64,000 nucleotides of DNA from Candidatus Hydrogenedens sp. (lineage in GTDB: Bacteria > Hydrogenedentota > Hydrogenedentia > Hydrogenedentales > Hydrogenedentaceae): positions 32,001-96,000 of the forward strand of contig JBMFRC010000003.1 of NCBI GenBank assembly GCA_049968235.1. The letters are read 5' to 3'. Position numbers and translations under genes: made by a program. Positions 13,579-36,250 of the stretch are shown here, piece by piece (within the stretch, counting starts at the first letter, position 1; each line of letters starts with the position of its first letter). The notes under the pieces are model-generated. The model saw only the letters and a list, made by a program, of their open reading frames with translations. It did not search any database and was not told the DNA's origin.

Positions 13579-15354
13579 TTATTTCTCTTTAGGTTTTAGT
13601 ATGATAAATGTTGGCAAACCTAAAACTTCTAAATGGTCAAGCACTTTTCGGACTTCCGATGCATCCGGATTTTCCGCCTGGAATTTAATCTGAACAAATT
13701 TGTTGAGTTTCTGCTTTACGGTTTCGTCAGATAAAACGGTTTTATTCATAACGATACAGTTTTTACACCATGTCGCCCAGAAATCAATAACAACAGGCTG
13801 ATTGCTTATTTTCGCTTTATTCAGCCCTTCCGCTAATGAGGTATGCCAGCCTTCTGTAATTTTATTCACGGAAATATCTCGGGTAGCCAATAGGGTATAG
13901 GTAGTATATCCATAATAACCTGCAAGGCAAAGTAAGAACACACCAAAAGCATATTTCACATATTCCATCCATTTACCGGGTTTGGGTAAAAGCGTCATAC
14001 CAGCACCTAATATGGGCCAGGGTAAAGCCATTCCGACACCTAATAGCAAGGGGAGGAAAAGAGCAGAAGAATAACCCTGACTATACAAATCCTGTGCCTG
14101 CAGTATTGTGGATATGACAACCGGAGCCACACAAGCACCCGCTAATAACGCAGATACCCCACCCATAAATAAGGCAACGAAAAAACTTCCTTGTGTATTT
14201 CTGCGAATGCCTATAAAAGATTGGAAACGGGAAAAATCGATGATAATAAAATCAAACATGGCTAATGCTAATATTATAAATAATAAAGTTATAAAGCCAT
14301 TGAACCAATAGGTTGAATTGATGGCTCCGAATGTTTTGGAAATACCCAGAACGACAGCAATCCCCAATCCGCCATAGACAAGAGAAATACCCAACCCATA
14401 GGCTAAACCCAGTAATGAACCGCGTATGCGTGAACCTGCTCGTGCTCCTGCACCAATAATCGCCAAATTTAATGGAATTACAGGTAGCACACAGGGCGTA
14501 AGATTTAACGCAAGTCCACCTATGAGGATAATAAAAAGGAGGGAAATAATACTGCGGTTTGTTTTTTTCGTGACAGAGGTTGTGCCGTCCTGTTCTGCGG
14601 ATTCTATAAATCGTATAAATTCATCCCGATTGGCATAACCATCCAATCGGGACACTACTCGAAAATCTTTTATAAGTTCCTCCCAATTCTTTTGTCCAGT
14701 AACGAGGGCACTTATTTGTGATGGTGAGGTTTTATCAGAAACTTTTTCCTGTGGAACTGTTTCGGTTCCCGAAAAGGTTTCTGCTTGAGTCCATTGTATC
14801 GTTTTTATTTTTTGTTGTATCTCATCACTGGCAAGAATGGAGTTTTCACCGATGTTTAAAGATATTTTTACTGGAATGGTCGAAGGAGGAAGGCATTGCC
14901 GGTCATTACAAGATTGATATTTCAAAGTTCCCGTTAATTCTATTGAACCGCGATTTTCAGCATTATTTAAAACGACAATTTCAATACCGATGAAAAAATC
15001 ATTTTCAAAAACCGATAAGGGTTCTTCCGAAAAGGATAATTTCACTTCTTTAGATGCAGGATAAATAATTTTTTTTATCTGAATTAGCGGGTTTTCTTCA
15101 AATGTGAGTTCAGTAGGTATTAAAAATTCATCCAGAGGTTTATTGCTGTTAATATGCCATTCAGGTTCTAACTGAAATTGTATAACTATCTTAGAAGGAA
15201 GTCCCGGTTTTATACGTTCATATTCCACAAAAACTTTATAAGTTATTTCAGGTCCTTTGGAAATCTTCTGCCATTGTGCCGGTGCATCTACGATGATAAA
15301 AAAAATAAAAATAAATAATGATACCGCTATAAAGTAAAAATCCTTTTTCTTCAT
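13579..15354 (-). CDS. dsbD: Thiol:disulfide interchange protein DsbD-like (periplasmic N-domain, CcdA-type membrane core, C-terminal thioredoxin)
   Basis: TM cysteines in CVLPVIPL and ACVAPV, as in CcdA/DsbD TM1/TM4. C-terminal thioredoxin motif WATWCKNC. N-terminal signal peptide. Confidence 0.75.
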   Translation of the reverse strand: MKKKDFYFIAVSLFIFIFFIIVDAPAQWQKISKGPEITYKVFVEYERIKPGLPSKIVIQFQLEPEWHINSNKPLDEFLIPTELTFEENPLIQIKKIIYPASKEVKLSFSEEPLSVFENDFFIGIEIVVLNNAENRGSIELTGTLKYQSCNDRQCLPPSTIPVKISLNIGENSILASDEIQQKIKTIQWTQAETFSGTETVPQEKVSDKTSPSQISALVTGQKNWEELIKDFRVVSRLDGYANRDEFIRFIESAEQDGTTSVTKKTNRSIISLLFIILIGGLALNLTPCVLPVIPLNLAIIGAGARAGSRIRGSLLGLAYGLGISLVYGGLGIAVVLGISKTFGAINSTYWFNGFITLLFIILALAMFDFIIIDFSRFQSFIGIRRNTQGSFFVALFMGGVSALLAGACVAPVVISTILQAQDLYSQGYSSALFLPLLLGVGMALPWPILGAGMTLLPKPGKWMEYVKYAFGVFLLCLAGYYGYTTYTLLATRDISVNKITEGWHTSLAEGLNKAKISNQPVVIDFWATWCKNCIVMNKTVLSDETVKQKLNKFVQIKFQAENPDASEVRKVLDHLEVLGLPTFIILKPKEK

Positions 15355-25477: not shown

Positions 25478-26587
25478 ATGTTGTACAAGGAATATGGAAA
25501 GACAGGGTTAAAGGTTTCGCGATTAGGTATGGGCGGTATGCGTTTTGAGGACCCGCATAAGACAGAGAAAATGGCTGAAGTGCTCATTCGTGCATATGAA
25601 TTAGGGATTAATTTTTTTGATACGGCTCCCTCTTATTGTGATGACCAGAGTGAGATTATTTATGGATGTGCCTTCAAGCAAATGAAAAAGCCTCGCGATA
25701 GTTTTTATGTCTGTTCCAAAACGATGGCAGATAATCCTAAGGATATTCGCGAAGCATGTATGCGTAGTCTGGACAGGCTCGGGCTGGATTATCTGGATTT
25801 TTATTATGTCTGGTGTCTGGTGCATCCCGAAGATTTGCCGAAACGGAAGAGGAACGGAGTATTGGACGGCTTCCGCCAACTAAAAGAAGAAGGACTGATT
25901 AAACACATTTGTGTTTCTACTCATCTGGAACATAAAAAAATTGCAGAGATGTTAGACCAGGGCGAGGGTTTATTTGAAGGAATGTTAATCGGTTTGAGTG
26001 CTATTAATTTCCCTTTGCGTTATCCCGGTGTTGTAGAGGCTGGAAAACGAGGTATGGGTGTAGTTACAATGAACACTTTAGGAGGTGGAATTATTACCCA
26101 GCATCCCGAACGGTTTTCATTCCTGATGAAAGAAGGAGATAAAAGTGTTCTTGATTCCGCTATTCGGTTTAACCTATCCCTGCCGGAAATAACTGTTGCA
26201 TTGGTGGGTTTTCGCAATGTAAACGATGCAGAAACCGCCGTAGAAAGTGTGAACCGATTCGAACAAATGGATTGGTCTGAGATTGAAGCGTTGCAAAAGC
26301 ACATAGCGGAAGTTCAACATGATTTTTGTACCCAATGCGGATATTGTGAAGGTTGTCCAGCAGAAATTCCTATTGTGCGATTGATGGACACATACAACTA
26401 TCGGCTTTTATTCGGTCCCGAAAAGGCAATGGAACATCTAAAATGGCACTGGTGGACCGAAGACATCCGCAGTATTATCGACAAATGTACCCAATGCAGA
26501 CATTGCGAAGAAGAATGCACACAAAGCCTCCCGATATTAGAGCGATTTCAGGAGTTATGCCGGGACTACGAAACATGGAAAAAGTAA
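25478..26587 (+). CDS. Aldo/keto reductase with C-terminal Fe-S (4Fe-4S ferredoxin-like) cysteine motifs
   Basis: AKR N-terminal region (GMGGMRF...FFDTAPSY...). C-terminal CTQCGYCEGCP and CTQCRHCEEEC. Confidence 0.75.
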   Translation: MLYKEYGKTGLKVSRLGMGGMRFEDPHKTEKMAEVLIRAYELGINFFDTAPSYCDDQSEIIYGCAFKQMKKPRDSFYVCSKTMADNPKDIREACMRSLDRLGLDYLDFYYVWCLVHPEDLPKRKRNGVLDGFRQLKEEGLIKHICVSTHLEHKKIAEMLDQGEGLFEGMLIGLSAINFPLRYPGVVEAGKRGMGVVTMNTLGGGIITQHPERFSFLMKEGDKSVLDSAIRFNLSLPEITVALVGFRNVNDAETAVESVNRFEQMDWSEIEALQKHIAEVQHDFCTQCGYCEGCPAEIPIVRLMDTYNYRLLFGPEKAMEHLKWHWWTEDIRSIIDKCTQCRHCEEECTQSLPILERFQELCRDYETWKK

Positions 26588-26695: not shown

Positions 26696-29128
26696 CTATT
26701 TTTGTGTAAGTTTTAAAGATGTTTTATATACATTAGTTATAGAGCAAAGAATCAAAGCGGTAATTGCCATATCAAACAAGGTATAACTAATACGGATTAG
26801 TGAAGTTAGTTGATTACCTTTACTTGCCATGATACCTCCACTAATAATTGCAATTACCAAGAAAAGTCCAGTAATCCATGAAAGTATTTTACTGTGGGCA
26901 TCTCTGTGTTGTGTAATTAAGAAGAATAGCGATACAAAGACAGGAAAAGCGGTAACATAAAAATGGTTTTTGTCGAACCAGAGCCTCTCAGGAATAACCC
27001 AAAAGGCAATATCAGGTTTGATGATTAAAATGAAGACACCGACTAAAATCAGTAAATACACGAGTGAAATCTGAAGAGATGTTAAGGCAAATTCGTTATG
27101 TGATGAACTTAGTTTATGTAATAGCCAAACTAAAGTAAAGAGAAATAGTAAAAATACAAGTTGATATTCAATGGGTTTTAATATTTGTTCTCGAAAGGCT
27201 GATAGGGTAACCATCCACCGACTTAAACCTAAACGAATATATTGTGGTTCGTAAACAGGTTTTCCATCCTTGCCAAAGGGATATTTAACGATATTTCTAA
27301 ACAACATACTTTGCGATGAAAAGGAATGACACTCAACGCAACCTTTTCTGCCGAGTGCTGATAAAGCCGGCGATACATCATGGTTATATTTATATACAGA
27401 AGCATATGGTGAAGACTCATACAAATCTTTGTTTATCCATTGGAATTCTGAACTATTAAAGTACATTCTATCATCGTTAACCCAAACTACCTTCTTATGA
27501 GCTAAATCATAACCTTTGCTTGTCAGCATATCTGTTACTGATTTAATAATCGCATCAATTTCTTCATCTCGATTTACCTCAGGGATGCCATCATTGTTAT
27601 CGTCTTTAATTTTTGCTAATTCAGGATATGCATTGGGGTCTTTCTGGTGAGTAACCCACATTTCATATACATCTTTCATCCGTGGTTGATGAAGTCCATT
27701 TTTACCCTTGGTGTAGATACCGGGCCAGGTACTATGCACAGGGTTAACAGGGAATATTTGTCCTTTATAGCGAGCATATTGTGGATAGAACAGGTCGGTT
27801 GGTTGGTCTTTTTCAGTAAATTGAGCCAGTTCTCCATAGTGATTCCAGTAATTCATATCTTGGTCATAAAAAGTCCAGACATACTTGGGTGGTGGTGTAA
27901 TTTTAGGACCTGGATTCAGCACATCACTTACTTGCACAAGTGCAGATTTTACTTTTCTTACAGGAATATGACAGGTTTGACAGGATAAACTTTCCATGTG
28001 AAATGGAGGCAACCATTCATGCCGGGCTATGGGCGCATTCATATATCCCTTAATGTGGCAATCGGTGCATTTCCGCATAGTGTTATCTAAATCATCGCGA
28101 ACAAAACCAGAAGGGTCGTCGCCTTTTCCAAACTGATGTTCTTCCTTCCCCTTAATTCGAGTATCTACTGCCATAGAACCAGCAGGATGACAATCAACGC
28201 ACTTTAATCCTTTTGCTATGTGTACATCTGTTAGCGGAGAAAAAGAGGCTCCTCGTTTTTTCCATTGAGGCTTAGAATGACAATTCAAACAATTTTCCAC
28301 TCTCGGTTCACGAACAAGATGAAGGGATACTTTCCCATCTTTATCAAATTTGGATATATCATATTGAATATTAATTTCCTCATTATCTTTTATAGAACCG
28401 TTTATCTTTGCTAAACCGCTTCCAATAGTTGCCATCCACTTAAAATTCCATTTTAAAAGATTTTCATTTCTTTCCTTGTAATCGTATTCAGGTAAATGAC
28501 ACATGTTGCAATCTGCCTCTGCAACGCCTGATTTTTTCCAGAAAGATTTATAGTAATCACCATCATAATTGTTTATCCCCCCATCCTCATAATTTGCTTT
28601 ATTCATATACTTATCATACCTGTTTCCTGTTCGGTCATATTCAAAAGGTCCACCCCCCGGATGACAGGTGCCACATCCATTAGCAAAAATGGTGAATGAA
28701 GTCATATCCATTTCTGTATCGGTTGTGTTTTCTTTTTTGGAAAGATAATTATAAAGGGGTGCTGGTGAACACCAATTACCCCCATAAAGACCGGGATATA
28801 ATACCCATTGGTATCGTTCTGCTAATTTATCCGTTACATTTTCATCTCTTCCCTGTTGGAAATGAAAACCTTTTGTTATCTTATCGTAATTATGACACTT
28901 CCCACAGGTCTGTTTTGTTGAATAAGGTTTGTCGGTATTAATATTATGAACAGGGTCAATCAGATTTCCATCTTCATCATATAAATAGAAAGGTGGACAT
29001 ACTCCTGACTGGGTAACTAAATCTCGTTTTATTGGGGGTATTCGTTCTTCATATTGATAATTAACCCGTGTAATATAACATGAAATCAATATTATCAAAA
29101 CAGTTAAAAAAAGATAACAAATTTTCAT
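26696..29128 (-). CDS. Multiheme c-type cytochrome (8 CxxCH motifs) fused to a C-terminal polytopic membrane domain
   Basis: CxxCH motifs CGKCH, CGTCH, CNMCH, CLNCH, CVDCH, CTDCH, CQTCH and CVECH. N-terminal signal anchor. The last ~200 aa contain about 5 predicted TM helices. Confidence 0.8.
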   Translation of the reverse strand: MKICYLFLTVLIILISCYITRVNYQYEERIPPIKRDLVTQSGVCPPFYLYDEDGNLIDPVHNINTDKPYSTKQTCGKCHNYDKITKGFHFQQGRDENVTDKLAERYQWVLYPGLYGGNWCSPAPLYNYLSKKENTTDTEMDMTSFTIFANGCGTCHPGGGPFEYDRTGNRYDKYMNKANYEDGGINNYDGDYYKSFWKKSGVAEADCNMCHLPEYDYKERNENLLKWNFKWMATIGSGLAKINGSIKDNEEINIQYDISKFDKDGKVSLHLVREPRVENCLNCHSKPQWKKRGASFSPLTDVHIAKGLKCVDCHPAGSMAVDTRIKGKEEHQFGKGDDPSGFVRDDLDNTMRKCTDCHIKGYMNAPIARHEWLPPFHMESLSCQTCHIPVRKVKSALVQVSDVLNPGPKITPPPKYVWTFYDQDMNYWNHYGELAQFTEKDQPTDLFYPQYARYKGQIFPVNPVHSTWPGIYTKGKNGLHQPRMKDVYEMWVTHQKDPNAYPELAKIKDDNNDGIPEVNRDEEIDAIIKSVTDMLTSKGYDLAHKKVVWVNDDRMYFNSSEFQWINKDLYESSPYASVYKYNHDVSPALSALGRKGCVECHSFSSQSMLFRNIVKYPFGKDGKPVYEPQYIRLGLSRWMVTLSAFREQILKPIEYQLVFLLFLFTLVWLLHKLSSSHNEFALTSLQISLVYLLILVGVFILIIKPDIAFWVIPERLWFDKNHFYVTAFPVFVSLFFLITQHRDAHSKILSWITGLFLVIAIISGGIMASKGNQLTSLIRISYTLFDMAITALILCSITNVYKTSLKLTQK

Positions 29129-29186
29129 TCGAGACCTCTAAATAAGTTATCCGAGTTAGGTAGTATATAAAACAGTGTATAGAAAT

Positions 29187-29225
29187 GAGACCTCTGAACC
29201 ATTATACTAATTGTTCAGAAGTCTC
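29187..29225 (-). promoter_or_regulatory. Leader hairpin in the cytochrome 5'UTR, with a duplicate of its 3' arm overlapping the SD
   Basis: Plus-strand GAGACCTCTGAAC-N13-GTTCAGAAGTCTC (12 of 13 positions complementary). A second GAGACCTCT sits at 29131-29139, immediately 5' of the start codon and covering the putative SD AGAGG. Confidence 0.4.
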
Positions 29226-29544
29226 ATTTGCAAATTGATAATAAGTTAATTTAAAGGGCGGAAAATATTTTGTTATACATTAGTCTGTATTTTGATGGTG
29301 AAATGGGAATCTTTTATTTCATAATGTGAAATATTGTCCCATATTAAATTAAGTAATTTTCATGCTTTTATATGTTTATTTATACTATCTATGAATTATT
29401 GCCTTCTTTGTTAATCTGTTTTATTAATAATTTATTCTATTCATTTTATCAGTTGAATTGCTGTCATTGGGACTATTCTTCGCAATTGTAATTCAGGGAT
29501 TATCCCATGATAGGTGGTGATGTAATAATCTTGACCGGGTTTGT

Positions 29545-31386
29545 CTATGCAATGTAAACATCTATGGGATTATATTTATTATGGAGGAATAGGGCATCGC
29601 GGAAGGTTCCCGTTTTTTGAAATTGTAGTTTCTCTATAAAAGAAATCAGTGGTATATCATTGGGATTTACATAAATAAGCCAGCGATTTTTGGGAAATCG
29701 GCTTTTGATTTGATTAAATAGAATCTGGAAGTTATCCTGAATATCTTTATTCATATAATCATCCGGGTTATGAAAATATATATACACTACGGATAGATTG
29801 GGGATTGTATGCATGTGTATTTTTATCAATCCACGAGGTTTCGTCTTTTTATCGATGATGACCCATTCTTCATATTCTCTGCTTGTATTTAAAATCTCCT
29901 GCTCTTTCTCATGCCTTGTGGTTGTTAAAATATTTCCCCATTGAAGTGTAAAATAGATATTGCTATTCCATGTTTCCCATTGAGCAAGCCAATCTTCATC
30001 TTGTGGTCGTAGAGGTCGGATAGAAATATGTTCTTTAAAGAAACTACGGAAAATATGTTTCAGGATAGATAATTTGCCGGGTTTTTGAACATCTCTATTT
30101 ATAGGCATATCTGCGAAAAGAGCAACCCCGGCATTGTTTAACTCCTGATAGCGGACAATTACTTCTTCTATCCATTTTCGTTGTGCTATACACCAGTCCT
30201 TTCTAGGTTCCGTTACTTTTCCTGTATATCGATAATGAATTGTTCCATGTCCACCTCCGCAGAAATTTTGAGCCCAGCAAGTAATACATGCAGGAGTTGT
30301 ATTAATCCCCAGACGATATAGACATTCTGCATCTTTCAGAGGGATTTCGTCCTTCCGTATATTTCCCATGTAGCAGAGGTTCTTTTTATAGTATAAATAT
30401 CCACCATACACATCGCCAGTAGATGTTATAAACCATTCTTGTATACCTGCGGGGTCTCTTCGTTTTGTAGGGATACCATGTTGAATGTTCTGAAACAACT
30501 GCATAATGGGTTCTAATATGTATCTGTTCCCTTTTTTTAATTGTTGTGTATATACGGCGGTTAGGTGTGTTAGTTCCTGGAAAAAGGTTCCAATATTCCT
30601 ATCCGGATTTAAGGCAAGGGGCGAAAATATGTCAATTAGTATTTTTTTTACATCATAATTAAAAACTTTTTCAATGGTTGGAGTAAAAGGTAATTCTTCG
30701 GGAAGGAAAAGAATGTGTCCGTTCTGACTATTTAGAAAATTATGGAACACTGATTCATTAATGGTTTCTATTTGTTGTACAAGTTCAGCGGAAATTTTCG
30801 GAAAGACTAAAAATAGTTTTCCCATATCCTCTATTTTCAATTTCGCACGGATATAATCCGACATAGGGAGATATAGATTTATAACCACATTTTTATCTCT
30901 ATTCGGGCACTGTTCATGAATGAATAAATTAAGTGTATTAAGAATATCCTGAATAGTTTCGTATTTTTGGTGAAGCCATAAATTTATCTGAAATTTTGGG
31001 TTTGCCTGAATGTAAGGTAATGCTTTTAATATTGCCAATGGAATTATCTTTTGAATGAGAGAGAAATTGGATTCATCTATCAAGAAGGAAAGTGTGTTGA
31101 GATGGAGAGTTTGGGTAAGAGATTGAACCCAATTCTCTATTTTTTGATATTTCAAAATAGAGCCAATTGAACGCAGGTATTCGAGTTCATCCCAGACTTC
31201 CCGTAGTTCTTTTTCCGTATATTGTGTAGATAGGATATTTTGTATTTTATGTTGTGTATTTTCTGGGTAGTATTGCAGGGTATCGTATGTAATTTTATCG
31301 CATTCAAAACAGAAAGTATCAAACACATCTACAGCAAAGAATCTTCCCTCTCGTTCAAAGGTATATATAGGTCTTATCTTGCTCAT
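29545..31386 (-). CDS. Radical-SAM-like/SPASM-domain protein with a degenerate SAM-cluster motif (putative peptide-maturation or scaffold protein)
   Basis: C-terminal region GDVYGGYLYYKKNLCYMGNIRKDEIPL...CITCWAQNFCGGGHG matches the SPASM pattern (G.VYPC...GNI...CxxCx5CxGGC). N-terminus RFFAVDVFDTFCFECDKITYDTLQYY resembles the pre-core region of peptide-modifying rSAMs. At the position where the rSAM motif L.L.ITE.CNL.C.YC is expected, the sequence is LSFLIDESNFSLIQ, with no CxxxCxxC. The C-terminal ~200 aa start IRPLRPQDEDWLAQW, which is GNAT-like. Confidence 0.55.
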   Translation of the reverse strand: MSKIRPIYTFEREGRFFAVDVFDTFCFECDKITYDTLQYYPENTQHKIQNILSTQYTEKELREVWDELEYLRSIGSILKYQKIENWVQSLTQTLHLNTLSFLIDESNFSLIQKIIPLAILKALPYIQANPKFQINLWLHQKYETIQDILNTLNLFIHEQCPNRDKNVVINLYLPMSDYIRAKLKIEDMGKLFLVFPKISAELVQQIETINESVFHNFLNSQNGHILFLPEELPFTPTIEKVFNYDVKKILIDIFSPLALNPDRNIGTFFQELTHLTAVYTQQLKKGNRYILEPIMQLFQNIQHGIPTKRRDPAGIQEWFITSTGDVYGGYLYYKKNLCYMGNIRKDEIPLKDAECLYRLGINTTPACITCWAQNFCGGGHGTIHYRYTGKVTEPRKDWCIAQRKWIEEVIVRYQELNNAGVALFADMPINRDVQKPGKLSILKHIFRSFFKEHISIRPLRPQDEDWLAQWETWNSNIYFTLQWGNILTTTRHEKEQEILNTSREYEEWVIIDKKTKPRGLIKIHMHTIPNLSVVYIYFHNPDDYMNKDIQDNFQILFNQIKSRFPKNRWLIYVNPNDIPLISFIEKLQFQKTGTFRDALFLHNKYNPIDVYIA

Positions 31387-32225
31387 TAATAAATCCCCAG
31401 CGTGCCTTTGTATCTACTATAGTTTTCCATTATCTTAAATAAAGAAATTCCGATAAAAGTCCAGATAATACAACTAGCACAAAGCCAATAGAAGCAGGGG
31501 TGTAAGAAAACGGACATAAATTGTCCCGGTGCCATTTGTTGACCTTTTACAAGCACATATTTTAAGCAGATAGAAGCGTCTGTGATAGGTAAAGCATGCA
31601 TAAAAGCAGATATAAACCAGCCCTGCTGTAAAAATTCTTCACGGGCAAAGATGGCTAATGCGAACAATGCCATTCGCACAATAATTGTCAGTTGTCCTAC
31701 TTGTTTAAATACGAGCACCAGTCCTCCTACCAAAAAACCAAATCCCAATAAATTGATAAAGGACAGGGTTAGTAGAACAACAACAGGGATAGGGTCAAAA
31801 TAAAGTTTTCCACCGACACTAATCACAACAAAATAAACCATAATAGCGGAATAAAGAATTGTTGTTACTGACGCAACCACGGCACGGGCAAGAAAATTCG
31901 TTACCAGACCATAAGGGCTCATACATAATTGTTCTAACACACCCGTTTGTGCCATACCCTGAATTCCCTGTGTGAACATGCCAATTACGCCGAAGGCAAA
32001 TAATCCGATAATAAAGCCCAGAATATAGTTTGTGGCACGTGTCGGGTCATCCAGTTGATTTATTCCCTTTTCGATTGCGGGCTGGCTATAAAAAAAACCA
32101 GCAATGAGTATCATGAGCATCCCATAGCCAATAATCAGTCCTGTTAATGTACGGAACCAGTAGCGTCGGGTGATAATCCATCCACGTATTATCTCTGCTT
32201 TCATAATGAGTAGAAAACCAAGCAT
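31386..32225 (-). CDS. ABC-2 type transporter permease
   Basis: About 6 TM helices in 279 aa. Sits directly downstream of an ABC ATPase and overlaps the next gene by 1 nt. Confidence 0.7.
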   Translation of the reverse strand: MLGFLLIMKAEIIRGWIITRRYWFRTLTGLIIGYGMLMILIAGFFYSQPAIEKGINQLDDPTRATNYILGFIIGLFAFGVIGMFTQGIQGMAQTGVLEQLCMSPYGLVTNFLARAVVASVTTILYSAIMVYFVVISVGGKLYFDPIPVVVLLTLSFINLLGFGFLVGGLVLVFKQVGQLTIIVRMALFALAIFAREEFLQQGWFISAFMHALPITDASICLKYVLVKGQQMAPGQFMSVFLHPCFYWLCASCIIWTFIGISLFKIMENYSRYKGTLGIY

Positions 32226-35280: not shown

Positions 35281-35400
35281 TTAAAAGCCAATTTCGTTTT
35301 TCTTTTCGTAGCGGAAATCCTGCCAGGCTCGCCACACCGCATTAAAAAAGTTTGTAAAGGCATCAGCTTTCCGTAATGTCAACTTTTGAATGTGCTTCAT
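35281..35400 (-). CDS. Small peptide E (39 aa from MKHIQKLTL...; alternative start 35415)
   Basis: Minus-strand ORF MKHIQKLTLRKADAFTNFFNAVWRAWQDFRYEKKNEIGF. Shares the MKHI+K/R N-terminus with the neighbouring small ORFs. Not in the ORF track (under 60 aa). Confidence 0.45.
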   Translation of the reverse strand: MKHIQKLTLRKADAFTNFFNAVWRAWQDFRYEKKNEIGF

Positions 35401-35451
35401 GTTCTTATTTCCCATATTACAAGTTTTAGGTGTTAATATATAAAAATTTAT

Positions 35452-35652
35452 TTAACTGCTTGAAGAGGTTGTTGTAGTAGTTGTTGTCCCGGTGCTCGGC
35501 AATGGAGACTCCGGGTCCTTATTCTTGAAAACAGGAATAAAAATTTTTATTATATCTTCAATAAATTTTATTATATTAACTGTGGTATAGGGGAAATCAC
35601 TCGCGGATAGGGGTTGAGTTATCTTCTGAATATGTATCTTATTACGCACCAT
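35452..35652 (-). CDS. Small peptide D (66 aa), Ser/Thr-rich C-terminus
   Basis: MVRNKIHIQKITQPLSAS...PSTGTTTTTTTSSSS. SD GGAAG upstream of the ATG at 35652. Overlaps the end of peptide A in another frame. Confidence 0.45.
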   Translation of the reverse strand: MVRNKIHIQKITQPLSASDFPYTTVNIIKFIEDIIKIFIPVFKNKDPESPLPSTGTTTTTTTSSSS

Positions 35653-35809
35653 ACTTCCCACTTCCGTCCAATGTTGAGGTATCTTCTGTATTTCTCGTTT
35701 CGAGTAAAGTTCGAACTGCTGTCAATATCTGAAGAAAAATTGTCAAAATAACATCAATCGTAACCGCTTGAACAGGTCTACTGTATGTCTGTCTTTTAAT
35801 ATGTTTCAT
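35642..35809 (-). CDS. Small peptide A (55 aa)
   Basis: MKHIKRQTYSRPVQAVTIDVILTIFLQILTAVRTLLETRNTEDTSTLDGSGKYGA. Its N-terminus and hydrophobic core (ILTIFLQILTAV) are paralogous to peptide B (ILTLIANILSVV). Not in the ORF track. Confidence 0.55.
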   Translation of the reverse strand: MKHIKRQTYSRPVQAVTIDVILTIFLQILTAVRTLLETRNTEDTSTLDGSGKYGA

Positions 35810-35884
35810 AAAAATACCTTTAAACTATAAATCTATTATACTAAATATAAAGTATTTTACAAACTACAAAGATTCTGTATCTTA

Positions 35885-36070
35885 CTAACTGGTCGTAGTA
35901 TTTGTTGTTTCCTGAGGTTTTTTTACTTCCGCTAAAGGCAAGAAGAAATTTGTAAGCACAGAAAGCAAAAAACAAAGAAATGCCTGATAATCACTTGTGA
36001 TATTTGTGCAAAAGTTAGAACTTTGCTGTGCCCTTGATGGTTTAACAGTGATACATTGGATTCTCTTCAT
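35885..36070 (-). CDS. Small peptide C (61 aa)
   Basis: MKRIQCITVKPSRAQQSSNFCTNITSDYQAFLCFLLSVLTNFFLPLAEVKKPQETTNTTTS. Strong SD AAGGAG 9 nt upstream. The only member with Cys (3). Confidence 0.55.
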   Translation of the reverse strand: MKRIQCITVKPSRAQQSSNFCTNITSDYQAFLCFLLSVLTNFFLPLAEVKKPQETTNTTTS

Positions 36071-36094
36071 TATTTCTATCTCCTTTTATTTAGA

Positions 36095-36250
36095 CTACGA
36101 AGAAGAGGAGGTGCCTCCTTCTTTAGCGACAAAAGCCTGAGCGACGACAGATAAAATATTCGCAATCAGGGTTAATATCTGTCCAATACTCAAAGTTGTC
36201 TCTATTTGTGCTTTGTGTAATGTGGCGGTTAATCTTCTTATATGTTTCAT
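36095..36250 (-). CDS. Small peptide B (51 aa)
   Basis: MKHIRRLTATLHKAQIETTLSIGQILTLIANILSVVAQAFVAKEGGTSSSS. SD GGGAG 8 nt upstream. Not in the ORF track. Incompatible with the overlapping 71-aa track ORF 36123..36338, which is considered spurious. Confidence 0.55.
   Translation of the reverse strand: MKHIRRLTATLHKAQIETTLSIGQILTLIANILSVVAQAFVAKEGGTSSSS

What the first reader, a model, noticed from the sequence alone, without database searches (positions are those of the whole stretch)
26696..29128. Eight-heme c-type cytochrome fused to a ~5-TM C-terminal membrane domain
Eight CxxCH motifs are spread over a ~600-aa periplasmic region. The final ~200 residues form several TM helices (…LVFLLFLFTLVWLL…, …ISLVYLLILVGVFILII…, …VTAFPVFVSLFFLI…, …ITGLFLVIAIISGGIM…, …DMAITALILCSI…). 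Fusion of a multiheme module to an integral membrane domain suggests a quinol or membrane-redox-linked electron conduit rather than a soluble cytochrome. The gene is monocistronic, with its own long AT-rich leader, and sits next to the peptide island.
Basis: seen in the sequence. Interest (0 to 1): 0.5.

Follow-up and report, generated by a model that had tools for sequence, protein, structure and literature searches.

The report
Membrane-anchored eight-heme cytochrome, b561-derived tail
This is a real single gene for a membrane-anchored eight-heme cytochrome from a widespread, unstudied family; its membrane part looks like a cytochrome-b domain that has lost its heme-binding histidines, and most relatives (not this copy) sit inside arsenic-resistance gene clusters.

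Summary
ORF 26696-29128 (-) encodes 810 aa with eight CxxCH motifs, an N-terminal signal-anchor and five C-terminal TM helices. More than 100 full-length homologs of 810-850 aa keep this layout, so it is not a frameshift artefact. The protein is identical to NCBI MGC8845644.1, 'multiheme c-type cytochrome', from a Ca. Hydrogenedens MAG.

The family is uncharacterised. It is found in at least 461 species-level genomes, and the top 80 are all MAGs. The same eight-heme periplasmic module is fused in sister lineages to genuine cytochrome b561 (HydC/FdnI) domains, which is the CbcL/MtoC/MtrH architecture.

In 69 of 80 related genome loci the gene lies in ArsR-controlled ars islands, with ArsE/F/G, ArsP, ACR3, ArsC, a rhodanese-like protein and a ProC-like reductase. 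The 64-kb window has no ars genes.

Best reading: a periplasm-facing heme wire anchored by a heme-b-less, possibly quinol-interacting, b561-derived domain. It is a new variant of a known kind.

The parts
26696..29128 (-). Complete ORF, 810 aa plus stop: octaheme c-type cytochrome with membrane domain
   Evidence: 100% identical to NCBI MGC8845644.1 / MGC8737599.1, 'multiheme c-type cytochrome [Ca. Hydrogenedens sp.]'.
29057..29128 (-). N-terminal hydrophobic segment (aa 1-24): signal-anchor or signal peptide. A lipobox-like LISC is present at C17.
   Evidence: Hydropathy maximum 2.29. The segment is present in all homologs, but a lipobox occurs in only 3 of 100. AF2 models a helix at aa 2-23.
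27968..28906 (-). Heme motifs 1-7. The CxxCH codons lie at 28892-28906, 28661-28675, 28496-28510, 28277-28291, 28187-28201, 28055-28069 and 27968-27982.
   Evidence: All are 98-100% conserved in 100 homologs. Only generic multiheme Pfam hits (Cytochrome_C7, MtrC II/IV) cover aa ~200-390.
27359..27928 (-). Non-heme insert (aa ~401-590) between hemes 7 and 8. It includes a confidently modelled alpha/beta sub-domain and an invariant D509-x-N-x-D...E517-x-N519 motif.
   Evidence: No Pfam hit. pLDDT is 70-89 for aa 467-556. Invariant columns are listed.
27326..27340 (-). Heme motif 8 (C597-VE-C-H601), the membrane-proximal heme, about 40 aa before the juxtamembrane helix
   Evidence: The surrounding 'SHxVxP..ALGxxGCxDCHS' is conserved even in the b561-fused relatives.
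26702..27220 (-). C-terminal membrane domain (aa 637-809): amphipathic 'SAFREQxxKP' helix plus 5 TM helices. It is b561-derived and has no Pfam family.
26960..26992 (-). Conserved periplasmic-face motif P713-x-R715-x3-D719-x-N-H722-F723 at the start of TM3. H722 is the only conserved His of the membrane domain.
   Evidence: H722 is 100% conserved, D719 98%, R715 94% in 94 unique tails. H722 aligns within one residue of the helix-II heme-ligand His of the b561-type relatives.
26771..26785 (-). Y782-T-L-F-D786 at the periplasmic start of TM5. It is the counterpart of the b561 'YTLHD' heme-ligand motif, with His replaced by Phe.
   Evidence: Alignment. Y782 is 97% and D786 94% conserved.
29183..29229 (.). 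47-bp near-perfect palindrome in the leader (22-nt arms, 3-nt gap), centred on a TATAAT, 55-100 nt upstream of the ATG. Candidate operator and/or RNA hairpin.
   Evidence: 91% complementary. Unique in the window, with 0.01 expected by chance. As RNA it folds at -25.2 kcal/mol, z=-6.7. It does not resemble the palindromes upstream of arsR in Bacteroidota relatives.
29135..29139 (-). Shine-Dalgarno-like AGAGG, 6 nt before the ATG
   Evidence: Read directly from the sequence.

Best explanation
The gene encodes an inner-membrane-anchored, periplasm-facing octaheme c-type cytochrome. The proposed layout is as follows.
- An N-terminal signal-anchor is followed by a periplasmic part of about 610 aa. 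That part carries eight hemes (probably all bis-His) and a non-heme insert.
- A five-helix membrane domain ends the protein, with the C-terminus in the cytoplasm.
- The membrane domain descends from the HydC/FdnI-type cytochrome b561 domain that sister proteins (CbcL/MtoC/MtrH-like) still carry. It has lost three of the four heme-b ligand histidines, so it can no longer hold the two-heme transmembrane wire.
- What selection has kept is a polar cluster on the periplasmic face (R715, D719, H722, Y782, D786), next to the membrane-proximal heme 8.

Most likely mechanism (inferred): electrons enter or leave the heme chain at this periplasmic-face site, probably by menaquinol oxidation with protons released to the periplasm. 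That would be non-electrogenic, as in NrfH/CymA-type quinol dehydrogenases. The electrons then travel along the eight hemes to a periplasmic partner or substrate.

In most lineages the family is expressed from ArsR-controlled ars islands, so its physiological acceptor or donor is probably linked to arsenic stress, possibly from organoarsenicals. The Hydrogenedens copy in this window is an orphan outside any ars island. It has its own palindromic control element.

Shown: the architecture, its conservation, the topology logic, the loss of ligands and the genomic association.
Inferred: quinol interaction, direction of electron flow and the substrate.
For: - Architecture and heme motifs.
- Conservation as one ORF in 100 unique homologs, with 10 extra conserved periplasmic His for distal ligation.
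- Positive-inside loop charges.
- The same heme module is fused to PF01292 b561 domains in relatives (E=5e-22 and 1e-14).
- hhalign of the window-type tail against the b561-type tail gives Prob 98.7, E=3e-16. The core-only comparison gives Prob 87, E=4e-6, against 0.15 for the reversed control.
- H722 is the only conserved His, 'YTLHD' has become 'YTLFD', and all invariant polar residues lie in periplasmic loops or helix ends.
- P0123, 56% identical in the heme module but carrying a true b561 tail, occupies the same ArsE/DGC gene niche.
- Ars-island association holds in 69 of 80 genome loci. ArsR lies upstream on the same strand in 52, and a ProC-like gene lies within 150 bp downstream in 18.
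- NCBIfam identifies the neighbours as ArsE, ArsF and ArsG.
- Literature definition of CbcL/MtoC/MtrH as quinol oxidases or quinone reductases: PMC6295460, PMC9129911.
Against: - There is no direct evidence for quinol binding.
- The membrane domain matches no curated family. PF01292 hits only 1 of 20 members, at E=0.15.
- The hhalign signal over the four-helix core is modest and confined to TM4-TM5.
- The heme region is poorly modelled (pLDDT below 50), so the distance from heme 8 to the conserved cluster is unknown.
- The window itself has no ars genes and no other respiratory partner nearby. The family-level context may therefore not apply to this copy.
- The closest relative's locus shares no neighbour with the window.
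Confidence: 0.5

Rival explanations
1. The membrane domain is only an anchor. It is a vestigial b561 remnant with no redox role. It tethers the octaheme module to the membrane, and electrons come from other periplasmic or membrane proteins, for example other cytochromes or a thiol relay such as the DsbD/ArsG-type and thioredoxin-like proteins encoded next to many homologs.
For: Three of the four heme ligands are lost and no curated family matches. The AF2 model is a tight helical bundle resembling generic bundles. Some relatives carry only a single C-terminal TM (P0121, P0168) or none (P0162, P0224), so the heme module can work without a polytopic domain.
Against: A pure anchor would not need five helices in addition to the N-terminal TM. 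It also would not keep an invariant polar cluster (R715, D719, H722, F723, Y782, D786, G764) across at least 12 phyla at only about 30% overall identity in the domain. All these residues lie together on the face next to heme 8.
Confidence: 0.25
2. The domain still binds one heme b near the periplasmic face and acts as a modified CbcL-type bc-cytochrome. The ligands could be H722 with M767 or Y782, or H722 from two protomers in a dimer.
For: H722 is 100% conserved and corresponds to the helix-II ligand of the periplasmic-side heme in b561-type relatives. M767 is 81% conserved and Y782 97%, both at the periplasmic ends of TM4 and TM5.
Against: The partner His of that heme is replaced by Phe throughout the family. 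M767 is also conserved in the relatives that keep all four His, so it is probably structural. There are no cytoplasmic-side ligands, so there can be no transmembrane wire. A single heme at the periplasmic side adds little beyond heme 8.
Confidence: 0.1
3. The protein is itself a periplasmic enzyme of arsenic metabolism rather than a mere wire. For example, it could be a quinol-driven reductase of pentavalent or nitro-aromatic organoarsenicals, or another arsenical redox enzyme. It might use one heme and the two invariant non-heme cysteines (C44, C120) as the active site.
For: The family is embedded in ArsR-regulated operons next to ArsE/F/G, ArsP, ACR3, ArsC and a rhodanese-like CxC protein. 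C44 is 98% and C120 100% conserved, and neither is part of a heme motif. A large conserved non-heme insert could form a substrate site. Microbial reduction of pentavalent organoarsenicals is documented, but the 2016 review I read names no enzyme for it (PMC6138428).
Against: Ten extra conserved His are enough to make all eight hemes six-coordinate. There is no similarity to catalytic octaheme enzymes: octaheme_Shew scores 30 bits against a 375-bit cut-off, and the PDB profile search gives 0 hits. C44 and C120 may simply form a disulfide. The window copy lacks any ars context. Heme-only chemistry on As(V) has no precedent that I know of.
Confidence: 0.13
4. The fusion is an artefact: a frameshift or assembly error has joined a cytochrome gene to a separate membrane-protein gene.
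For: None found.
Against: There is one uninterrupted ORF. An identical protein occurs in independent MAG assemblies. 120 top database hits of 683-846 aa, most of them 800-846 aa, and 80 genome loci from at least 12 phyla show the same collinear layout.
Confidence: 0.01

Closest known systems
CbcL / MtoC / MtrH bc-type inner-membrane cytochromes (Geobacter sulfurreducens CbcL; PMC6295460, PMC9129911)
   Same: One polypeptide carries an N-terminal periplasmic multiheme c domain with bis-His hemes, followed by a C-terminal polytopic membrane domain. The window's heme module is homologous at E<=1e-85 to proteins with exactly this architecture (P0138-P0145 and others). The membrane domains align by hhalign.
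   Different: CbcL-type domains match PF01292 and keep the His ligands for two b hemes. The window family fails PF01292 and keeps one His only. It has eight c hemes, against nine in Geobacter CbcL. The genomic context is ars islands rather than Mtr/Mto-type extracellular electron-transfer clusters.
FdnI / HydC-type cytochrome b561 (Pfam PF01292)
   Same: The region shows remote profile-profile similarity over helices III-IV, including the 'YTLHD'-type motif position and a Gly in 'SG/TGxxM'. It also has four helices following an extra TM.
NapC/NirT/NrfH/CymA tetraheme quinol dehydrogenases
   Same: The proposed working principle is the same: quinol oxidation at the periplasmic membrane face next to a c-type heme, without b hemes and non-electrogenic. 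There is a weak PF03264 similarity over hemes 3-5 (also precomputed for many homologs).
   Different: PF03264 is below threshold (21.2 against 24.1 bits) and does not cover the N-terminus. The N-terminal TM is about 50 residues away from heme 1. The conserved membrane-face residues lie in the C-terminal domain, not next to the N-terminal helix.
ArsEFG organoarsenical detoxification genes (Chen, Zhang and Rosen 2019, cited in PMC9144182; NCBIfam TIGR00412, NF040494, NF040495)
   Same: Homologs of the window protein are encoded immediately beside arsE, arsF and arsG under ArsR in many genomes.
   Different: The cytochrome is none of ArsE, ArsF or ArsG. It is an additional, unnamed gene. The window has no arsE, arsF or arsG. 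I could not read the primary paper, so what I say about ArsEFG function rests on the NCBIfam model names and my own recollection.

Membership tests
CbcL/MtoC/MtrH bc-cytochromes | Periplasmic N-terminal domain with multiple CxxCH motifs | tested here: met
   Eight CxxCH motifs, all conserved.
CbcL/MtoC/MtrH bc-cytochromes | C-terminal polytopic membrane domain in the same polypeptide | tested here: met
   Five TM helices, conserved as a fusion.
CbcL/MtoC/MtrH bc-cytochromes | Membrane domain is a HydC/FdnI-type cytochrome b (PF01292) | tested here: not met
   The window protein has no PF01292 hit. Only 1 of 20 family members hits, at E=0.15. The only support is remote hhalign similarity to relatives' b561 tails.
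CbcL/MtoC/MtrH bc-cytochromes | Conserved histidine ligands for b-type hemes in the TM helices | tested here: not met
   Only H722 is conserved among 94 unique tails. The b561-fused relatives keep His at four ligand positions.
CbcL/MtoC/MtrH bc-cytochromes | Quinol oxidase or quinone reductase activity feeding periplasmic cytochromes | not testable with these tools
   Requires biochemistry.
NapC/NirT/NrfH/CymA | PF03264 match above threshold, with the N-terminal TM directly preceding heme 1 | tested here: not met
   PF03264 scores 21.2 bits against a 24.1-bit cut-off, over aa 198-314 only. Heme 1 is about 50 aa after the TM.
Catalytic octaheme cytochromes (OTR, ONR, HAO, MccA) | Family-level sequence match or a solved-structure relative | tested here: not met
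   NCBIfam octaheme_Shew scores 30 bits against a 375-bit cut-off. The PDB profile search gives 0 hits at E<=1.
ars-island component (ArsR regulon) | Encoded within or adjacent to ArsR/ArsC/ACR3/ArsP/ArsEFG genes | tested here: not met
   Met for the family: 69 of 80 genome loci. Not met for this copy: the 64-kb window has none of these genes, and the closest relative (L005) has none either.
Bacterial lipoprotein | Lipobox [LVI][ASTVI][GAS]C at the end of the signal sequence | tested here: inconclusive
   The window has L-I-S-C17, but only 3 of 100 homologs have a lipobox. It is probably fortuitous.

The most novel reading that the evidence does not exclude
The family is a previously unrecognised component of arsenic resistance in anaerobes. 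It would be an ArsR-induced, membrane-quinol-linked octaheme enzyme that performs a periplasmic redox step on arsenicals. One candidate step is the reduction of pentavalent or nitro-aromatic organoarsenicals that feeds the ArsEFG/ArsP efflux routes. The enzyme would use a heme chain plus the invariant Cys44/Cys120 pair, and a b561-derived domain whose former heme pocket has been converted into a quinol site. The Hydrogenedens copy would be a descendant recruited to another acceptor.
Probability: 0.12. Interest if true: 0.8.

Novelty: new variant of a known kind. Interest (0 to 1): 0.5.

Why it matters
Fusions of multiheme c domains to cytochrome b domains (CbcL, MtoC, MtrH) are the known way many bacteria connect the quinone pool to periplasmic and extracellular electron transfer. 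This family shows that the same heme module is also paired with a membrane domain that has shed its b hemes yet stays under strong selection. That points to a different and simpler way of coupling to the membrane.

Separately, finding a conserved octaheme cytochrome inside ArsR-controlled ars islands in dozens of anaerobic lineages flags a missing, testable function in arsenic biology. It sits with ArsE/F/G, ArsP, a rhodanese-like CxC protein and a ProC-like reductase. Current ars gene catalogues, as far as I could search them, do not list a cytochrome.

For this particular window the gene is an orphan copy. Its direct value is as a well-defined member of that family.

Tried and rejected
1. 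Pfam and NCBIfam on the whole protein, on the membrane domain alone and on the non-heme insert gave only generic multiheme hits and nothing for the other two regions.

2. Foldseek against the PDB with the full-length model gave nothing below E=0.5. That model's heme region is unreliable.

4. A PDB sequence-profile search gave 0 hits.

5. I considered a STEAP/MsrQ-like model, with cytoplasmic NAD(P)H passing electrons through the ProC-like partner across the membrane. I rejected it for three reasons: no cytoplasmic-face residues are conserved, there are no cytoplasmic-side heme ligands, and the partner is a flavin-less P5C-reductase-like protein.

6. I asked whether the cytochrome is ArsE. It is not: ArsE is the small Thioredoxin_3 protein.

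7. I asked whether the window's leader palindrome is an ArsR operator like those upstream of arsR in Bacteroidota relatives. There is no resemblance.

8. I looked for synteny between the window and the nearest relative's locus and found none.

9. The sigma-70 promoter and terminator scan was not above shuffles. Rfam on the leader gave only a sub-threshold chance hit on the hairpin.

10. Literature. The primary ArsEFG paper is not held. Searches for a cytochrome in ars operons found nothing describing this family.
Full report
OBSERVATION.

The finding's coordinates are exact. ORF 26696..29128 on the minus strand encodes 810 aa from an ATG, preceded by a GAGG Shine-Dalgarno 6 nt upstream.

The protein has eight CxxCH motifs, at aa 75, 152, 207, 280, 310, 354, 383 and 597. 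Shuffles of the same composition give 0.012 motifs on average.

Hydropathy shows an N-terminal hydrophobic segment (aa 1-24) and five C-terminal ones between aa ~655 and 800. A domain-only AlphaFold model of aa 620-810 is confident (pLDDT 90, pTM 0.85). It shows a juxtamembrane amphipathic helix followed by five long helices.

The protein is 100% identical to NCBI MGC8845644.1 / MGC8737599.1, 'MAG: multiheme c-type cytochrome [Candidatus Hydrogenedens sp.]'.

THE FUSION IS REAL.

A search of 5.8 billion proteins returns 1017 hits. The best 120 are 683-846 aa long, most of them 800-846 aa, and 52-73% identical to the query.

In an alignment of 100 unique full-length members, all eight CxxCH motifs are 98-100% conserved. 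Ten further periplasmic histidines are conserved at 91% or more: H89, H270, H303, H331, H370, H377, H430, H465, H494 and H583. That is enough for bis-His ligation of every heme. Two non-heme cysteines, C44 and C120, are 98% and 100% conserved.

Loop charges follow the positive-inside rule for a topology of N-terminus in, heme domain out and C-terminus in. The predicted cytoplasmic loops carry K+R of about 2.4-2.5, against about 1.5 in the periplasmic loops.

The lipobox-like LISC of the window protein occurs in only 3 of 100 homologs. The N-terminus is best read as a signal-anchor or a Sec signal.

WHAT THE MEMBRANE DOMAIN IS.

Pfam and NCBIfam give nothing for it, whether in the window protein or when 20 members are scanned one by one. 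PF01292 appears once, at E=0.15.

The decisive evidence came from distant relatives. An exhaustive phmmer scan of 1.84 billion representatives finds 900 proteins at E<=1e-3. In these, the same eight-heme module recurs, recognisable by 'CPPF...PYSxxQTCGxCH...GYHFQ' and by a last heme in 'SHxVxP..ALGxxGCxDCHS'. It is joined to different C-termini:
- genuine prokaryotic cytochrome b561 domains of the HydC/FdnI type, in two variants (PF01292, E=5e-22 and 1e-14);
- the window's five-TM type;
- another five-to-six-TM type;
- a single TM;
- no membrane part at all;
- tandem duplications with 15-16 hemes.

A multiheme c domain plus a HydC/FdnI-like di-heme b domain is the published definition of CbcL/MtoC/MtrH quinol oxidases or quinone reductases (PMC6295460, PMC9129911).

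Profile-profile alignment of the window-type tail against the b561-type tail gives Prob 98.7%, E=3e-16 over 173 columns. Part of that score comes from a shared juxtamembrane 'FRExxLKP' segment and TM1. With those removed (94 against 11 sequences), TM4-TM5 still align to b561 helices III-IV at Prob 87%, E=4e-6. A reversed control gives E=0.15.

In that alignment the window family's invariant 'AYTLFD' lies on the b561 'YTLHD' heme-ligand motif, with His replaced by Phe. H722, in the motif 'NHF', falls within one residue of the helix-II ligand His.

The b561-type relatives conserve His at four ligand positions. In the window family, H722 is the only position in the whole domain with His in 30% or more of sequences, and it is 100% conserved.

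The other conserved residues are R646, E647, K651, P713, R715, D719, F723, G764, Y782 and D786. All lie on the predicted periplasmic side, that is, beside the membrane-proximal heme 8. The cytoplasmic loops are short and unconserved.

I therefore call the domain 'b561-derived, not a member of PF01292'. I rest that on sequence profiles within the superfamily only.

THE HEME DOMAIN.

Only generic multiheme families match: Cytochrome_C7, MtrC/MtrF II/IV, and sub-threshold NapC/NirT over hemes 3-5. No catalytic octaheme family matches, and a PDB profile search gives no hit at E<=1. AlphaFold with 25 sequences models this region poorly (pLDDT below 50), so I draw no structural conclusions from it.

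Between hemes 7 and 8 lies a conserved non-heme insert of about 190 aa. It has a confidently modelled alpha/beta sub-domain (aa 467-556) and no family match.

GENOMIC CONTEXT OF THE FAMILY.

A scan of one genome per species finds relatives in 461 genomes. The 80 best are all MAGs. They come from Bacteroidota, Ignavibacteriota, Planctomycetota, Nitrospirota, Verrucomicrobiota, KSB1, Latescibacterota, Chloroflexota, Armatimonadota, Hydrogenedentota, Spirochaetota and others.

Precomputed Pfam labels on nine contigs first showed ArsR-type regulators, LMWP-ArsC, ACR3, ArsP, Thioredoxin_3, AlgE-like porins and CDF transporters around the gene. I used those neighbours as seeds for iterative HMM searches over all ORFs of the 80 genome loci. 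The number of loci with each gene family is:

- ArsR: 56
- ArsP: 53
- DsbD_2/ArsG-like: 45
- Thioredoxin_3: 39
- ProC-like (F420_oxidored): 35
- ArsF: 34
- ACR3: 29
- rhodanese-like: 29
- ArsC: 25

69 of 80 loci have at least one of ArsR, ArsC, ACR3 or ArsP within 10 kb. ArsR lies upstream on the same strand in 52 loci. The ProC-like gene follows within 150 bp in 18.

NCBIfam identifies the Thioredoxin_3 proteins as 'MTH895/ArsE family'. It identifies the two genes upstream of the cytochrome in L008 as ArsF (105 bits, cut-off 60) and ArsG (304 bits, cut-off 200). The cytochrome is none of these. It is an extra, unnamed gene.

Two arrangements recur. One is a compact unit, ArsR > rhodanese-like (140 aa, PF00581) > cytochrome > ProC-like. 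In the rhodanese-like protein the active-site Cys position reads Asp, and there is a C-terminal CxC motif. The other is a long operon, ArsR > ArsE > ArsF > ArsG > ArsP > ... cytochrome.

A relative whose heme module is 56% identical but which carries a true b561 tail (P0123) sits behind ArsE-like and DGC genes, the same niche. The two tail types therefore appear functionally interchangeable.

I found no paper describing a cytochrome as an ars-island component. The primary ArsEFG paper was not available to me.

CONTEXT IN THIS WINDOW.

None of this applies locally. The 64-kb window has no ArsR, ArsC, ACR3, ArsP, ArsE/F/G, rhodanese-like or ProC-like gene. Its neighbours are:
- a convergent aldo-keto-reductase/4Fe-4S fusion;
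- DUF6599 and TPR proteins;
- a sulfatase;
- upstream on the same strand, a 613-aa protein without Pfam hits, an ABC transporter, a CAAX protease and GNAT acetyltransferases.

A full-length DsbD lies 11 kb away.

The nearest relative (P0002, 73% identical) is also outside any ars island, and its locus shares only the cytochrome with the window. Another Hydrogenedentota MAG copy (L084, 50% identical) does sit among ArsP, ArsE, DGC, ArsG and ArsC. The window's sub-clade thus looks like an escape from the ars context.

The 416-bp leader contains a 47-bp near-perfect palindrome (29183-29229). It has 22-nt arms that are 91% complementary, is unique in the window, and is centred on a TATAAT. As RNA it would fold at -25.2 kcal/mol, z=-6.7. 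It may be an operator, a 5'-UTR hairpin, or the terminator of the upstream operon.

The palindrome does not resemble the TTCGTAA-N-TTACGAA palindromes about 60 nt upstream of arsR in Bacteroidota relatives. Generic promoter/terminator and Rfam scans were uninformative.

MECHANISM.

Shown:
- a membrane-anchored, periplasm-facing eight-heme chain;
- a membrane domain that descends from a quinone-interacting di-heme b domain but cannot hold two bis-His hemes;
- selection concentrated on a polar periplasmic-face cluster next to heme 8;
- family-level control by ArsR.

Inferred (confidence about 0.5): the cluster is a site where electrons pass between the membrane quinol pool and heme 8, NrfH/CymA-style and non-electrogenic. 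The heme chain then serves a periplasmic partner or substrate, which in most lineages is connected to arsenic stress.

Rivals:
- the domain is a mere anchor (0.25);
- it retains one unusual b heme (0.1);
- the protein is itself an arsenical redox enzyme using C44/C120 and a heme (0.13);
- the fusion is an artefact (0.01, refuted).

I rejected a STEAP-like transmembrane route from the cytoplasmic ProC-like partner. Nothing on the cytoplasmic face is conserved, and that partner has no one-electron cofactor.

VERDICT.

The protein is indeed a membrane-redox-type fusion rather than a soluble cytochrome. However, it is not NrfD/NapH-like, it lacks the b hemes of its CbcL-type cousins, and quinol coupling remains unproven.

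It is a new variant of a known kind. It belongs to a large, uncharacterised family whose strong and apparently undescribed association with ars islands is the most interesting lead, although this particular copy lies outside such an island.

Noticed in passing
window 29183-29229: A 47-bp near-perfect palindrome (22-nt arms, 91% complementary, 3-nt gap) sits in the leader of the cytochrome gene. It is centred on a TATAAT and is unique in the window. As RNA it forms a -25.2 kcal/mol hairpin (z=-6.7). It could be an operator, a 5'-UTR structure or the terminator of the upstream operon. A sub-threshold Rfam hit (Plastid-ccsA-ndhD-2, 30 bits against a 51.5-bit cut-off) falls on it and is probably chance.
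   Followed up: partly
L007:2101-12860, L008:6021-14069, L010-L089 (homolog loci): Homologs of the window protein are a regular, unnamed component of ArsR-controlled ars islands (69 of 80 genome loci). They lie beside ArsE, ArsF, ArsG, ArsP, ACR3 and LMWP-ArsC. I found no description of this in the searchable literature.
   Followed up: yes
L019:9547-9969, L022:9143-9601, L013:2094-2516 (29 of 80 loci): A conserved 140-aa rhodanese-like protein (PF00581) is encoded between arsR and the cytochrome. The canonical active-site Cys position reads Asp ('FADSVGLRS'), and a C-terminal 'SGSCMCQ' CxC motif is conserved. It may be an As(III)-binding partner.
   Followed up: partly
L001:10479-11249, L008:10595-11362 (35 of 80 loci): A divergent pyrroline-5-carboxylate-reductase-like NAD(P)H protein is encoded directly downstream of the cytochrome, within 150 bp on the same strand in 18 loci. 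It matches PF03807, and NCBIfam proC at 88-94 bits, below the 197-bit cut-off. Its role in an ars operon is unexplained.
   Followed up: partly
L001:~7590, L049, L060 (about 60 nt upstream of arsR): Palindromes of the type TTTTCGTAA-N0-2-TTACGAAA lie upstream of the arsR that precedes the cytochrome in several Bacteroidota loci. They are candidate ArsR operators.
   Followed up: no
window 28997-28999 (C44) and 28769-28771 (C120), within ORF 26696-29128: Two non-heme cysteines are essentially invariant across the family: 'GVCPPF' at 98% and 'NWCSPAP' at 100%. They could form a disulfide, be a heme ligand, or act as a thiophilic (arsenic-binding) site. This is unresolved.
   Followed up: partly
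window 27572-27604 (aa 509-519 of the ORF): An invariant D509-x-N511-x-D513...E517-x-N519 motif ('DDNxDGIPEVN') lies in the non-heme insert. By eye it resembles a calcium-binding loop. It was not tested.
   Followed up: no
window 35281-36250 (-): Several small ORFs start with a similar 'MKHI[KQR][KR].T' leader (35281-35415, 35642-35809, 36095-36250; also 35885-36070, 'MKRIQ'). They lie upstream of GNAT acetyltransferases, a CAAX protease, an ABC transporter and a 613-aa protein.
   Followed up: no
window 29545-31386 (-) and 31386-32225 (-): The 613-aa and 279-aa proteins immediately upstream of the cytochrome have no Pfam match at E<=1e-3. The 613-aa one carries a Cys-rich 'CITCWAQNFCGGGHG' stretch, and the 279-aa one is polytopic.
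   Followed up: no
window 25478-26587 (+): The gene convergent on the cytochrome gene encodes an aldo/keto reductase fused to a C-terminal 4Fe-4S dicluster domain.
   Followed up: no
P0231 (1367 aa), P0239 (1446 aa): Distant relatives carry 15-16 CxxCH motifs. P0239 is a tandem duplication of the whole eight-heme module without a membrane domain.
   Followed up: no
window 13579-15354 (-): A full-length DsbD (DsbD_N, DsbD_TM and a thioredoxin domain) lies 11 kb from the cytochrome gene. It is the only hit in the window to any of the neighbour families of the homolog loci.
   Followed up: no
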